Shown here one piece after another: positions 24,999 through 63,977 of a stretch of DNA of 64,000 nt. The notes below the pieces were generated by a model, which worked only from the letters and a program-made list of their open reading frames with translations, searched no databases and was not told the DNA's origin. The DNA is from Mustelus asterias (Eukaryota), in assembly GCF_964213995.1 (NCBI RefSeq), contig NC_135823.1, forward strand, positions 372,001 through 436,000. The letters are read 5' to 3'. A program made the position numbers and the translations under genes. Numbering within the stretch: position 1 is the first letter of the stretch; the number at the start of each line of letters is the position of its first letter.

Positions 24999-25043
24999 TT
25001 AGAGTTTTGGATCCTCGTTAAAGGCCAGGCGAGCGTAAAGCGT
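24999..25043 (-). CDS. Candidate terminal cytoplasmic exon with ITSM/ITIM-like tyrosine motif (TLYARLAFNEDPKL*)
   Basis: Good acceptor ttttcatccacAG; the phase-0 reading gives TxYxxL then a stop. It is the first non-repeat sequence downstream of the gap on gene A's strand. Linkage across the gap is unproven. Confidence 0.55.
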   Translation of the reverse strand, partial: TLYARLAFNEDPKL

Positions 25044-25349
25044 CTGTGGATGAAAAGTGATCAGTTCGTGCAATCCACACCATTATTATAGGGATGGGCG
25101 AGACCATTCAGTCCCCCGCTCCACCCCTCCCCCTCCCCGCCCCCCCCCCCCCCCCCACCCCCGCACTCTATTCAATCGGTTCATGGCTTAAAGGGAGCTC
25201 AACTCACAGTCACCCACCAATATTGAATAATCCTTAATCCACTCCCTAATGTAAATTTAACTGTCGCAGTTTTGAGAGTTCCAATTGCCCAATGTTCTAT
25301 ATAGCTTTTTAGTGACCAGAATTCCGCCCCGCGTTCTGTCAAGAAGTGT

Positions 25350-26604
25350 ATTGATTTCATTTAATATTGTCACATGTATTACTATGCATTGAAAAGTATT
25401 GTTTCTTGCCCAGTATACAGACAAAGCATACCGTGTACGGAGGAGGAAAGGAGAGGGTGCAGATTATAGTGTTACAGTGACAGCTAGGGTGTAGAGAAAG
25501 TTCAACTTAAATGAGGCAGGTCAATTCTAATGTCTGATGGCAGCAGGGAAGAAGCTGTTCTTGCGTGGGTTGGTACGTGACCTCAGACTGATGTATCTTT
25601 TTCCCGAAGGAGGAAGGTGGAATAGAGAATGTCCAGGGTGCGGGGGGTCCTTGATTGTGCTGTCTCTTTTTTACATAGAAACAAAGAAGATAGCAGCAGG
25701 AGGAGGTCATTTGGCCCTTCGAGCCTGCTCCACTACTCATTACGATCATGGCTGATCGTCCAGCCGAAGAGCCTAATCCTGCTTTCTCCCCATAACCTTC
25801 GCCCCCAGGTGCGATATCCAGCCGCCTCTTGAATACATTCAATATTTTGGCATCAACTACTTCCTGTGGCAATGAATTCCACAGGTTCACCACTCTTTTG
25901 GTGAAGAAATGTCTCCTCATCTCCGTCCTAAATGGTCGACCCCGAAACCTCAAACTGTGACCCCTGGTTCTGAACTCTCCCACCATCGAGAACATCCTCC
26001 CTGCATCCACCCTGTCTCGTCCTGTTAGAATTTTATAAGTCTCTATGAAATCCCCCCTCATTCGTCTGAACTGCAGCGAAAACAATCTTAACCTAGTCAA
26101 TCTCTCCTCATACATCAGTCCCGCCATTCCCGGAATGAGCCTGGTAAACCTTCGCTGCACTCCCTCGAGAGCACGAGCATCCTTCCAAAGTGAATACGCT
26201 TGGTATGTGTCCTGCTCTGTCCACGACCACAAGAACTGGTCCAATCCCATCACTCAAACCAGCCTCCCATCTCCTGACTCTGTCGGCACTTCCCGCTGTC
26301 TCGGAAAAGCAACCAGCATAATTAAGGACCCGACGCATTCCAGACGTACTCTCTTCCACCTTCTTCCGTCGGGAAAAAGATACAAAACTTTGAGGTCACC
26401 TACCAACCGGCTCAAGAACAGCTTCTTCCCTGCTGCCATCAGACTTTTGAATGGACCTACCTCGCACTAAGTTGACCTTTCTCTACGCCCTAGCTATCAC
26501 TGTAACACTACATTCTCCACTCTCTCCTTTCCTTCTCCATGAACGGTATGCCTTCTCTGTATAGAGCGCAAGAAACAATACTTTCCACTGTACCCCAATA
26601 CATG
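25350..26604. mobile_element. Two oppositely oriented Rex1 3' fragments flanking a CR1 3' fragment (25675-26187, -)
   Basis: LPSGKRY...NSFFPAAIRLLN motifs on both strands; CR1 [10 protein letters not shown]...VVNLWNSLP. Confidence 0.8.
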
Positions 26605-26804
26605 NNNNNNNNNNNNNNNNNNNNNNNNNNNNNNNNNNNNNNNNNNNNNNNNNNNNNNNNNNNNNNNNNNNNNNNNNNNNNNNNNNNNNNNNNNNNNNNN
26701 NNNNNNNNNNNNNNNNNNNNNNNNNNNNNNNNNNNNNNNNNNNNNNNNNNNNNNNNNNNNNNNNNNNNNNNNNNNNNNNNNNNNNNNNNNNNNNNNNNNN
26801 NNNN
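26605..26804. other. 200-N gap inside gene A (other N-runs: 10489-10629, 53327-53516, 57302-57457, 61371-61553)
   Basis: Exactly 200 N, suggesting a nominal-size scaffold gap. Confidence 0.95.
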
Positions 26805-26972
26805 CCAGTGTCCCTGAATCGGTCTGTCCCTCGGTATCCCGTCCCGAAACATTCCAGAGGACGGGAAAGGAATCGGGAGACACGCCTCTGACCAAACACA
26901 GCAACGGGACTCTTTCCATGGCGGGAATCTCATCCAGCGGCGGAGTGAGGAGGAATATGGTGGGAGAACCCG
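26805..26972 (-). CDS. C1-set Ig exon of gene A (5' part; remainder in N-gap)
   Basis: A 99-nt intron follows VJ, with a tAG acceptor at 26974-26973. In-frame (A)GSPTIFLLTPPLDEIPAMERVPLLCLVRGVSPDSFPVLWNVSGRDTEGQTDSGTL shows the C1 A/B/C-strand pattern (PxIFLLxP, LLCLV, VxW). Confidence 0.88.
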
Positions 26973-27071
26973 CTAAATCCGGCAAAACAAAAGGGGAACC
27001 CATTGACAATTGGAACAGGACACATTAATTGCTCTGAGGTCCCACATCAATGTAATAATAATGGAATTTAC

Positions 27072-27410
27072 CTGTAATCACTAACTTGGAGCCATTTCCG
27101 AATATTTGGGCCATGTTCTGGTAATTGCGCATTGCACAGTAATATATCCCAGAATCATTTATCCGGGAATCCGCAATCGTTAGTGAATAAATACGCCGTT
27201 TTTCAGAAATCTCGCTGGAAAATCTCCCCTCAGCTGGGCTGTACTGGTTCGCTCTGTAAATGAAATCCATGTGGTTTCTCTCCCTCTGTCTGTACCAGAA
27301 GACAGAGCCAGCAGCTTGACCCTGGATGCGGCAGCTGAGATTAACAGGACTCCCCGCAAGGATCGTCAGAACCGGCGGAGACTGGGACAAGGTGACCTGA
27401 GACATTGTAA
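27072..27410 (-). CDS. Germline-joined VJ (V-set Ig) exon of gene A
   Basis: (TC)n tract plus cAG acceptor at 27412-27411, then a 339-nt phase 1-1 open exon and donor GTAAAT. Protein has LSC, WYRQ, GRFS, YSLTI, DSGIYYC, an 11-aa CDR3-like loop and the J motif FGNGSKLVIT. No RSS between V and J. Confidence 0.93.
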
Positions 27411-28354
27411 CTGGGAAAGAGAGAGAGAGAGAGAACAACAGTCACCAGAGGTTATGGAGCATTCCCTGAAGACAGCGGACTGAAAGCCAATTGGGAGTAA
27501 ACCTCAAACCAGTCTTCCATCCATTGACACTTCCCGCTGCCTCGGCAAAGCAGCCAGCATAATTAAGGACCCCACGCACCCCGGGCATTCTCCCTTCCAC
27601 CTTCTTCCGTCGGGAAAAAGATAATAAGTCTAAGGTCACGTACCAACCGACACAAAACAACTTCTTCCCTGCTGCTGTCAGACTTTTGAATTTTCCTACC
27701 TCACACAAAATTGATATTTCTGTACACCCTAATTATGATGGTAACACGACATTCTGCACTCCCTCCTTTCCTTCTCTGTGTACGGTATGCTTTGTCTGTA
27801 TAGTGCGCAACAAACAATACATTTCACTCGATAGTAATACACGTGACAATATTAAATCAAATCAACTGAAATCACAAAAATGCCCGATTCAGAAAAAGAA
27901 ATCGCACCATTAAAATCGCTCTGATGATGGTGTTAGTTGCCCCATTTTCCTCCTCCCTTTCGAAAGGTATAATACCAGTCCATTCACCAGTAAATCTGGT
28001 TTAAACACTGGGGAGGGGGCACATGGAAACCAAGTGATGTTAAGCACATAGAGAGGTTCAGTGAAATTACGTTTCTCAACTATTGCTTACATCCCGTGTC
28101 TCTCCTTAAATGAAAGCAAATGACTGGGGATGCCTGGGACTGAACAAAAAACAGAAGATGCTGGAAAACCTCAGTGGGGGTACGGGAATTGTGATCAGTG
28201 CCGACTCGATCGGCCAAGTGGCCTCCTTGTGCGCTGAACAAACTGACTCTATGATTCTCGGTCTGAGAGCATCAGTGGAGGGAGAATAGACCCGACGTTT
28301 CCAGTCTGGATGATTCTCGGCCAGAGCTCCATTGCCTCTCCGCCGATGCGCTCA

Positions 28355-29510: not shown

Positions 29511-29553
29511 CCTGAAAGAGATGGAACAGTGCACAGATACCGAGGAAACTCAT
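29511..29553 (-). CDS. Leader (signal peptide) exon of VJ-C1 IgSF receptor gene A
   Basis: ATG at 29553 gives MSFLGICALFHLFQ+G (43 nt, phase 1), followed by donor GTGAGA. The phase matches the VJ exon acceptor, giving ...FQ-VTMSQVTLSQ. Confidence 0.8.
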
Positions 29554-61705: not shown

Positions 61706-63253
61706 ATGAACAGTCGACTGTCGGGTACAGAATGAGGAAATGAGGGCCTCAATGTTTCTGTGCACTCCTTCACAAATTAATTTAAAGTTAATCTCATTAC
61801 CAGATTCCCTCTCGAGATTCCAGCACCCATCAGGAAATTATCCCAAATTCTACTCTGCAATGCAACAGCTTCACCTCCACCCCCACGGCCCGTCAGTCTG
61901 AAGAATATACCTCTCTGCCTGCATGTATTTGTCTTTCTATCCATCTTCCCACGTTTCTTTCAAGGTTCACCCTTTATTATTTCGTGACAGCCATCTTACA
62001 GGATACATGAAAGTCTGTGGAAATCCATGCACGTTATACCAAATGCGTTCTTTTTTATTGTCCATTCGGATACTTCTTCCAAAATAATCTCCATTATCCC
62101 TGTTAAACATGATTGCACTTCCACAACTCGCTGCTCGCTGTCCTAAGATGAATGATCAGATCAATCCCAAGATGGGGTGCAATGCCTTCTCCTGTCAGTT
62201 TGGATCTTGTTTGTCTCCCTTGCGGGGACCTTAAAACGGATTCAATCAGATTTTGAATTTGATTTTTGGACCAAGCAAGGAATGGATTTGGGGTTTCCCT
62301 GTCCATTCTGAACATTGGCTTTGTAACTATAAGGATGGAGAAGAAAATAAAATAAAATAAATAACTAATAACTAGGAAATAGTCGTAAATTTCACTTCGG
62401 ATAATAGATGATAAACGTGTGTCCTCCACTCACTACATACTTAATTCTTCATAATTCCCAAACTGATTTTCAGATGGATGCAACTTTCAAGGTACAGCGT
62501 TTTGTTCGGACGGATCGAATTAATGTTGAGTTCCTTGTTAGGGTTAGTGATATGGAGAGGATTAAAATATGGCTTATCGCTGGTGTTACGGTTAGTGTTT
62601 GGTTTATTGCAAGGGTTAGCGTGAGGGTTAATGTTAGCACGAGGCTTAGGTCAGGGATAAGATTAGTGTTGCGGTTATTTTCGGGCGATGCAGTCAGAAA
62701 AAAATGGTTTCGAAATTGGAAAGGGGGGAAAGTGATATAGGATCCAGATACACACATAATTGATACAAAGTTTAATTAAACCATAAATACAAAAAAAACC
62801 CCAGACCATGTGGGTGACGCCCAAGTAAATCGATTTGAAAAGTTGAAGGTCTATGTTGAAATATCATCACCGTTAGTTAGGGGAACACTTGTACTCCTGT
62901 GAATGACTCTGATGTTCACATTATTGAATTAATATAGAGCGATTGGGGAATTTGCGACGAGGAAACTTTATTGGGATTTTACCTGAACAGAGATTGTATA
63001 ATGATCAGGAAAGGTGGAACAGGTTGAGGCTCTTTCGTTTAAACATGACACCGAGACAGTTAAGATGTTGAAGCATAACTGACGAATGCAGAGACTGTGC
63101 AATTAACAATCACAAGAAGTTTATTATTTATTAGTGTCACAGGTAGGCTGGCATTAACACTGCAATGAAGAATAAATAAATGTGAAAGTTTTGAAGCAAA
63201 AATAAACGTTGTTAGCAAATAACCAATAATAGGAGGAAAATGTTAATATCCAC

Positions 63254-63559
63254 CTCTCTCAGATGAGACACTTCCACTGACAAGATGTTGACTGGAGTTG
63301 ATCTGAACGGCGCAGATACACCGAGCTCCGCTGCTCCAAGATTCCGCCGGGAGAATTATGTAACTTCTGATTGTATAAGTTCCATCTGGATCGATTGCAC
63401 CAGAATCAATCCTGCCCTCCATAAGCCGCCCAGACACATTCCAGTGGATGGCGCAGTTATTTGAATCCACACTCTTCACCAAACATACCAAAGGGACCAT
63501 TTCCACCTGGGGAATTTCAACCAGTGGCGGAGTTAAGAGATAGATGATTGGGGTTCCCG
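63254..63559 (-). pseudogene. C1-set exon of pseudogene B
   Basis: GTPIIYLLTPPLVEIPQVEMVPLVCLVKSV...IHWNVSG...DPDGTYTIRSYIILPAESWSSGARCICAV...SSER with donor GTGGAT. About 79-nt V-C intron, with no AG at the homologous acceptor position. 31/55 aa identical to gene A C1. Confidence 0.88.
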
Positions 63560-63638
63560 GAGGAGTAAGATTCAGGCACTATTGAACATACGTTTCTTGG
63601 TGATTCATGATAAAATGAGAAAATAATATTTTTTGTTC

Positions 63639-63977
63639 CTGTAATGAGCAATGTGGAGTCGCTTCCAAACATAGAAGACATCCCACTGAACTGCTCAGCT
63701 GCACAGCAATACAGCCCCGAGTCATTGGCCCGGATTACAGCGATGGCTTGGGAATAGAGAGTCAATTTGTCATTACCGTCTCCTGAAAATCTCCCGTTTG
63801 AAGGGTTGCTTTTTGTCACGGTGTAAACAAGCTGTAGATGCTCACGTTGGCGCCGTTTATACTAACGGACAACTCCCCCTGCCAATCAGCCCGTGTGACA
63901 ATGCACCTTGTAGGTGCATCCAAGCGACAGAGTCTGGATCGCCAGGGTCTGGGACAAAACTGCCTGAGATACAATAC
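63639..63977 (-). pseudogene. VJ exon of paralogous VJ-C1 pseudogene B
   Basis: ctctctcAG acceptor and a 339-nt exon colinear without gaps with gene A VJ (41/113 aa identical by hand). In-frame TGA (63888-63886) and TAG replacing the conserved Trp (63864-63862). Shows DSGLYCC and FGSDSTLLIT; donor mutated to GA. The leader lies outside the window. Confidence 0.9.

What the first reader, a model, noticed from the sequence alone, without database searches (positions are those of the whole stretch)
24999..25043. Candidate inhibitory/switch tyrosine-motif tail (TLYARL) downstream of gene A
A strong acceptor is followed directly by TxYxxL and a stop, the typical last-exon layout of ITIM/ITSM receptors. 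If it belongs to gene A, a TCR-like ectodomain is wired to its own inhibitory signalling tail, unlike TCR/Ig. Phase 0 requires intervening TM and cytoplasmic exons. None are visible in 25044-26604 (all repeats), so they would have to lie in the gap. Direct phase-1 splicing from C1 would instead give a short secreted tail (xALRSPGL*).
Basis: partly seen in the sequence, partly recalled or inferred. Interest (0 to 1): 0.7.

Follow-up and report, generated by a model that had tools for sequence, protein, structure and literature searches.

The report
Shark germline receptor's tyrosine brake exon
This short stretch matches the spliced final exon of a family of shark surface proteins built like one T-cell-receptor chain but without DNA rearrangement, and its conserved tyrosine motif likely acts as an inhibitory switch, although this copy's own membrane-anchor exon is hidden in a likely assembly gap and is inferred from near-identical neighbours.

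Summary
Confirmed: 25043-24999 (minus) is acceptor + TLYARLAFNEDPKL + stop. That pattern alone is weak (4 hits in the window, 0.46 per shuffle). The evidence comes from paralogs. The three closest copies hold 3.5-3.9 kb where the window has 200 N, containing the C1 end, a transmembrane exon and a cytoplasmic exon ending in phase 0. Spliced contigs from two studies join C1-TM-cytoplasmic-TLYARL exons. YAxL is kept in 30 of 32 shark and ray homologs with a TM. Gene A is one of about 24 type-1 VJ-C1 genes interleaved with about 24 type-2 genes; relatives occur in bony fish, lungfish, coelacanth, a caecilian and reptiles. TLYARL is strictly neither ITIM nor ITSM but fits SHP-2 SH2 preferences, so an inhibitory tail is likely, not shown. 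Gene A's own TM and cytoplasmic exons are unseen; about 1 in 5 they are broken. The design is known (SIRP-alpha; probably PRARP, paper not held). I found no description of the shark array in 10 literature searches. The scan noted this same cluster earlier, 1.0 and 1.26 Mb away.

The parts
29511..29553 (-). Leader exon of gene A (MSFLGICALFHLFQ, phase-1 donor)
   Evidence: matches N-termini of NCBI models P0001/P0002
27072..27410 (-). Single-exon VJ-type V domain (WYRQ, DSGIYYC, FGNG), open frame
   Evidence: Pfam V-set 1.2e-15; no exact RSS heptamer or nonamer in 26900-27450
26805..26972 (-). 5' half of the C1-set exon, cut by the N run
   Evidence: the complete paralog exon in L027 is Pfam C1-set 8.8e-10; the half exon alone gives no Pfam hit
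26605..26804 (.). 200 N, likely an assembly gap; the three closest paralogs hold 3.5-3.9 kb here, with C1 end, TM exon and cytoplasmic exon. Gene A's own exons are inferred, not seen
25044..26604 (-). Visible 3' part of the last intron, mostly interspersed repeats, collinear with paralogs
25044..25057 (-). Pyrimidine tract and AG acceptor of the last exon
   Evidence: the equivalent acceptor is used in spliced contigs laid on paralog L027
24999..25043 (-). Last coding exon, phase 0: TLYARLAFNEDPKL*, single tyrosine motif

Best explanation
The TLYARL exon is the spliced last exon of a shark family of non-rearranging VJ-C1 membrane receptors, and in gene A it likely completes an intact receptor (TM and cytoplasmic exons inferred in the gap) whose single tyrosine would, once phosphorylated, likely recruit SHP-1/SHP-2 and damp activation. 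Shown: exon order leader-VJ-C1-TM-cytoplasmic-last in paralogs, splicing of the last three junctions in near-identical copies, conservation of YAxL and of a cysteine just outside the TM across sharks and rays. Inferred: the cysteine makes a disulphide-linked dimer, possibly with the interleaved type-2 chain, which carries its own YASL; the dimer would offer two phosphotyrosines to the tandem SH2 domains of the phosphatase. Skipping the cytoplasmic exon shifts the last exon into a tyrosine-free frame and would give a silent membrane form. The ligand is unknown; faster change in the CDR-like loops suggests a variable one.
For: Paralogs L025-L027 (94-97% identical on both flanks) hold 3522, 3859 and 3674 bases where the window has 200 N, with a phase 1-1 TM exon and a phase 1-0 cytoplasmic exon. 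Contigs of X5, X1 and X2 (2 studies) laid on L027 show GT-AG joints C1-TM, TM-cytoplasmic and cytoplasmic-last; X6, from the same sample as X5 and covering introns, shows none. NCBI model P0001 ends ETLYARLAFNEDPKL. 16 of 21 last-exon copies in the fetched DNA keep acceptor and YxxL; position -2 is T in 10, S in 4, I in 1, A in 1, so it interconverts with canonical ITIM residues. 30 of 32 elasmobranch homologs with a TM (36 examined) keep YAxL, and 1 of 32 has a charged TM core. T-x-pY-A-x-L with F at +5 fits the SHP-2 SH2 preferences quoted in PMC12151841 (passages). Two phosphotyrosines from two chains activate SHP-2 strongly (PMC7078208 passages). All 5 TM exons with an outer arginine have a broken route to the tyrosine exon, against 4 of 14 others (Fisher p 0.011, copies not independent), the pattern of paired receptors. 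The flank nearest the hidden cytoplasmic exon is closest to intact L027 (3 mismatches in 200, against 8 and 10). Type-1/type-2 ectodomain pairing: weak support, 0.49 against best control 0.00, runs agree in at least 78% of contacts, partner pLDDT at least 76; such a low pass is more often wrong than right unless likely beforehand, and may reflect likeness to solved Fab/TCR structures.
Against: Gene A's TM and cytoplasmic exons were not seen. Its V and C1 are closest to L025 (4 and 1 mismatches, against 8-10 and 3), a copy with a broken V, a TM arginine and a frameshifted cytoplasmic exon. The spliced contigs cannot be assigned to gene A: the listed V contig differs from L027 at 1 place, gene A at 4; none of the runs is on record as RNA. 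TLYARL meets neither (S/I/V/L)xYxx(I/V/L) nor TxYxx(V/I). Position -2 is acidic in 10 of 30 homologs (rays) and usually proline in type 2, which strict ITIMs do not allow. No binding or signalling was tested.
Confidence: 0.58

Rival explanations
1. The exon is real for the family but gene A itself is a broken, tail-less or mosaic copy: the gap hides a frameshift like that of the paralog at C23:81 kb, or joins halves of two copies or haplotypes.
For: V and C1 are closest to the broken copy L025 while the right flank is closest to L027; 9 of 19 scored copies have a broken route to the tyrosine exon; no contig was assignable to gene A.
Against: Leader, V, visible C1, acceptor and last exon are all intact; the flank 420 bases from the expected cytoplasmic exon resembles the intact copy; both flanks are collinear with the same paralogs, so unrelated contigs are not joined.
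Confidence: 0.18
2. The tyrosine is mainly a YxxPhi sorting or internalisation signal, so the receptor captures and takes up ligand rather than inhibiting.
For: Only Y, A and L are invariant; -2 varies among T, D, S, E and P in type 2. A single motif near the C-terminus fits YxxPhi (established knowledge, recalled).
Against: Ala at +1 in 30 of 30 and an aromatic or hydrophobic +5 fit SH2 selection; loss of the tail goes with gain of a TM arginine, expected for a brake and not for a sorting signal.
Confidence: 0.12
3. The tail activates or switches: ExxYxxL is half an ITAM, and a disulphide dimer could present two halves to Syk/ZAP-70, or the T at -2 could recruit a SAP-type adaptor.
For: E at -3 in shark chains and acidic residues upstream in rays; conserved juxtamembrane cysteine; hemITAM signalling by dimers is known (recalled).
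Against: L at +3 fails the ITSM consensus; separate arginine-bearing tail-less copies would be redundant if the tail already activated.
Confidence: 0.09
4. Gene A is a secreted germline-joined Ig light-chain-like or UrIg-like protein and TLYARL is a chance or phase-1 tail.
For: The pattern arises by chance in 37% of shuffled windows; germline-joined VJ light-chain-like exons exist elsewhere in this genome.
Against: TM and cytoplasmic exons in paralogs, spliced in order; family C1 domains are set apart from 17 Ig-type C1 outgroups at 98.8/99.
Confidence: 0.03

Closest known systems
[quoted passage not shown] 2019, PMID 30770416). Paper not held; title and one-line mentions seen in PMC10751288 and PMC11599192; other features recalled
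   Same: Non-rearranging joined-VJ IgSF genes, two of them in chicken (title). Recalled: V-C1 layout outside birds, ITIM/ITSM-like tail, dimers, orthologs in bony fish, amphibians and reptiles. The relatives found here have that layout and range: caecilian, turtles, Komodo dragon, lungfish, coelacanth, sturgeon, paddlefish, gar, bichirs, salmonids.
   Different: About 24 + 24 interleaved genes rather than a pair, with arginine-bearing tail-less copies. PMC10751288 lists PRARP among VJ genes 'in the MHC'; here all 140 MHC class I matches are on C8 and the cluster is on C23. No named PRARP sequence was in hand to compare.
SIRP-alpha / SIRP family (PMC12975943, passages)
   Same: V-set plus C1-set ectodomain wired to tyrosine motifs that recruit SHP-1/2; paired with a relative that has a charged TM and no ITIM.
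   Different: SIRP has V + 2 C1; here V + 1 C1, one tyrosine per chain, a cysteine outside the TM and two interleaved chain types. SIRP sequences were not in my trees.
UrIg / UrIg2 (PMC12227049, parts 1-2 of 8 and passages read)
   Same: Elasmobranch non-rearranging single-exon VJ followed by C1, split leader.
   Different: UrIg has three C1 domains, is secreted and MHC-linked; UrIg2 has nine or more C1 domains and lies in the Ig/TCR complex. 'ITIM' and 'PRARP' do not occur in that paper's main text.
TCR chains
   Same: Leader-VJ-C1-cysteine-TM order; two chain types side by side.
   Different: No V/J split or RSS, no charged TM residues in tail-bearing members, own tyrosine tail.

Membership tests
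PRARP | Single-exon V with J-like FGxG, no rearrangement | tested here: met
PRARP | V-C1-TM-cytoplasmic tyrosine motif (feature recalled) | tested here: met
   Met in paralogs and orthologs; gene A's own TM is inferred
PRARP | Two linked gene types able to dimerise (feature recalled) | tested here: inconclusive
   Two interleaved types with a juxtamembrane Cys; pairing only weakly supported
PRARP | Orthology to chicken PRARP1/2 by sequence | not testable with these tools
   No named PRARP sequence returned; papers not held. C1 domains group with unnamed bony-vertebrate V-C1 genes at 98.8/99
PRARP | Linkage to the MHC or an MHC paralogon | tested here: inconclusive
   Not on the MHC class I contig; marker genes nicastrin and NDUFS2 fall on small separate contigs, PEX19 not found
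ITIM (strict) | (S/I/V/L)xYxx(I/V/L) | tested here: not met
   T at -2 in gene A; met by 5 of 21 paralog copies (SVYARL x4, ILYTRL)
ITSM (strict) | TxYxx(V/I) | tested here: not met
   L at +3
ITIM/ITSM receptors (functional) | Phosphorylation and SHP-1/SHP-2 or SHIP recruitment | not testable with these tools
   Sequence fits SHP-2 SH2 preferences only
SIRP | V + two C1 domains | tested here: not met
   One C1 in P0001 and paralogs
TCR / Ig (rearranging) | Split V and J with RSS | tested here: not met
UrIg / UrIg2 | Three or more C1 domains | tested here: not met
   C1 splices directly to TM

The most novel reading that the evidence does not exclude
Sharks keep a roughly 48-gene array of two alternating germline VJ-C1 chain types that pair as TCR-like disulphide heterodimers, each chain donating one tyrosine to a split two-motif brake for SHP phosphatases, with arginine-bearing tail-less copies as activating twins: a combinatorial, RAG-free receptor system retained from sharks to reptiles and a living model of the two-chain receptor before RAG.
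Probability: 0.22. Interest if true: 0.85.

Novelty: new variant of a known kind. Interest (0 to 1): 0.5.

Why it matters
Non-rearranging VJ-C1 genes are the standing candidates for what the RAG transposon invaded. This family has the closest layout to a single TCR chain (VJ, one C1, cysteine, TM) yet carries its own tyrosine tail, in the oldest jawed-vertebrate lineage and in many copies. If it is the shark form of PRARP it dates that family to the jawed-vertebrate ancestor. It also gives a directly testable inhibitory receptor family for shark lymphocytes or NK-like cells, and shows that dozens of database entries named 'Ig heavy chain Mem5-like' or 'kappa light chain-like' are mislabelled membrane receptors.

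Tried and rejected
Motif-plus-acceptor pattern as evidence by itself: rejected. Synonymous/non-synonymous count on the 14 codons: uninformative, because frameshifted and misregistered copies were included. No RNA holder listed on record. PDB search returned antibody chains only among the 60 shown of 10175. V-domain tree (48 rows): type 1 (95/91) and type 2 (99/97) are each one group, but the family as a whole is not, IgL V falling inside at weak support; the one-clade test did not finish. The support labels printed are shifted by re-rooting; values were re-read. TCR, SIRP, MHC and tapasin C1 domains were not among the outgroups. Alignment A3 was chosen from proteins with tails (24 of 36 plus P0217 in place), so its invariance is biased; the unbiased count is. 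Synteny markers gave nothing usable. Literature: 10 searches found no description of this shark array; Fu 2019, Ohta 2019 and Flajnik 2023 were not held and may describe it; supplements of PMC10751288 and PMC12227049 were not read. No single-chain fold or fold search was run.

Full report
Observation. On the minus strand, a pyrimidine tract and CAG (AG at 25045-25044) are followed by TLYARLAFNEDPKL and TAA at 25001-24999, exactly as reported. The pattern alone is weak: the same scan finds 4 such sites in the window against 0.46 per shuffle.

Gene A. Upstream lie a leader exon (29553-29511), a single-exon VJ domain (27410-27072; Pfam V-set) with no exact RSS heptamer or nonamer nearby, and a C1 exon from 26972 that is cut at 26805 by 200 N. 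The genome is an elasmobranch's: all close homologs are from sharks and rays.

What the gap stands for. The window is G000:C23:372001-436000. Three paralogs are 94-97% identical on both sides of the N run and hold 3522, 3859 and 3674 bases between the equivalent points, so the 200 N is most likely an assembly gap. In those copies the interval holds the C1 end, a phase 1-1 TM exon with a cysteine just outside the membrane, and a short phase 1-0 cytoplasmic exon. A 96-base tandem repeat sits at the gap edge in one paralog.

Splicing. Contigs of four public runs were laid on paralog L027. X5, X1 and X2 (two studies) show GT-AG joints C1-TM (skip 2800), TM-cytoplasmic (139) and cytoplasmic-last exon (1983). 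X6, from the same sample as X5, has contigs running through introns and none of these joints. None of the runs is on record as RNA; the joints themselves argue for it. Only 15 joints were shown and 665 not, so a rare C1-to-last form is not excluded. The contigs cannot be assigned to gene A. NCBI model P0001 ends in this exon in phase 0; models P0002 and P0020 skip the cytoplasmic exon and read the last exon in phase 1, losing the tyrosine but keeping the TM.

Conservation. 16 of 21 last-exon copies in the DNA I fetched keep acceptor and YxxL. Of 36 elasmobranch homologs, 32 have a TM and 30 of these keep YAxL; position -2 is T in 18, D in 9, S in 2, E in 1. Proteins of the same layout with a C-terminal tyrosine motif were found in salmonids, gar, sturgeon, paddlefish, bichirs, coelacanth, lungfish, a caecilian, turtles and Komodo dragon. 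Their C1 domains and the shark ones (33 rows) are set apart from 17 Ig-type C1 outgroups at 98.8/99; the V tree does not resolve the family as one group.

The array. C23 holds 24 type-1 C1 exons and 24 of a second type, some broken; over the first 580 kb they largely alternate on one strand. Type 2 is also VJ-C1-Cys-TM and ends in PLYASL or similar; the nearest copy lies about 11 kb left of the window. At the V-V interface position, type 1 has Leu or Met (6 of 6) and type 2 Pro (12 of 14), as in heavy/beta and light/alpha chains (recalled). A complex prediction gave weak support: 0.49 against best control 0.00, contacts agreeing at least 78%, partner pLDDT at least 76; passes this low are more often wrong than right and may reflect solved Fab/TCR structures. 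All 140 MHC class I matches are on another contig.

Mechanism. TLYARL fails both strict definitions, ITIM (S/I/V/L)xYxx(I/V/L) and ITSM TxYxx(V/I), but T at -2, A at +1, L at +3 and F at +5 fit the SHP-2 SH2 preferences quoted in PMC12151841 (passages), and 5 paralogs carry canonical ITIM residues at -2. One tyrosine per chain in a dimer would supply the two sites that activate SHP-2 strongly (PMC7078208 passages). All 5 TM exons with an outer arginine have lost the route to the tyrosine exon, against 4 of 14 others (p 0.011; three divergent copies with no cytoplasmic exon found were left out; copies are not independent and at least two arginine copies also have broken V exons). Among 6 close copies, CDR-like codons have pN/pS 1.5 against 0.6 for framework and C1 (pairwise, small sample). 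I put the full model at 0.58; every signalling step is inferred.

Against. Gene A's TM and cytoplasmic exons are unseen. Its V and C1 are closest to the broken, arginine-bearing copy L025, while the flank nearest the hidden cytoplasmic exon is closest to intact L027; about 0.18 that gene A does not reach the motif in frame. Acidic -2 in rays and proline in type 2 leave sorting (YxxPhi) and hemITAM readings open.

Comparison. It works like SIRP-alpha (PMC12975943 passages) but fails the two-C1 feature. It is not UrIg or UrIg2 (PMC12227049, parts 1-2 and passages). It best fits PRARP, known to me from its title, mentions in PMC10751288 (section 13 and passages) and PMC11599192 (passage), and recall; orthology could not be tested, and the MHC linkage mentioned in PMC10751288 is not seen here. 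Ten searches found no description of the shark array, but three key papers were not held.

Verdict. A real, spliced, conserved tail exon of a germline TCR-like receptor family; likely inhibitory; design known, shark expansion apparently undescribed; already noted elsewhere in this cluster by the scan. Interest 0.5.

Noticed in passing
window 63246-63975 (minus): Gene B: a divergent type-1 VJ-C1 copy whose V exon carries stops and a frame break while the C1 exon is open; likely a pseudogene.
   Followed up: partly
G000:C23:350494-361129 (L045, L046): Nearest type-2 gene: VJ with two extra cysteines and a degenerate J motif, C1, Cys-TM, tail with PLYASL and a basic C-terminus.
   Followed up: yes
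G000:C23 TM exons at 77930, 591566, 1053093, 1102051, 1454856: Outer-TM arginine together with loss of the tyrosine tail in 5 of 5 copies.
   Followed up: partly
P0002, P0020: NCBI models skip the cytoplasmic exon and read the last exon in a tyrosine-free frame in two shark species: a possible splice switch.
   Followed up: partly
G000:C73:4123304 and 1887604; C23:3.08-3.27 Mb; C3499: Outlying type-1 and type-2 copies; the type-1 V at C23:3.23 Mb is nearly unchanged from catshark P0003 in the tree, unlike the fast-changing array copies.
   Followed up: no
L096 (G000:C1:175912753-175913085): Another single-exon VJ domain (YFGAG), on a different contig; identity not worked out.
   Followed up: no
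L086, L087 (G000:C8:20.45-20.48 Mb): Two single-exon VJ domains about 1 Mb from the MHC class I cluster; labelled NCR3-like from recall only.
   Followed up: no
L095 (G000:C16:64416500-64424000): A V exon followed by at least two C1 exons; used as an unlabelled outgroup, identity not worked out.
   Followed up: no
P0087: A caecilian member of this V-C1 family is named 'programmed cell death protein 1' by NCBI, apparently a mislabel.
   Followed up: no
window + strand 16152, 37831, 44604: Three more acceptor + tyrosine-motif + stop patterns with no Ig exon nearby; treated as chance.
   Followed up: no
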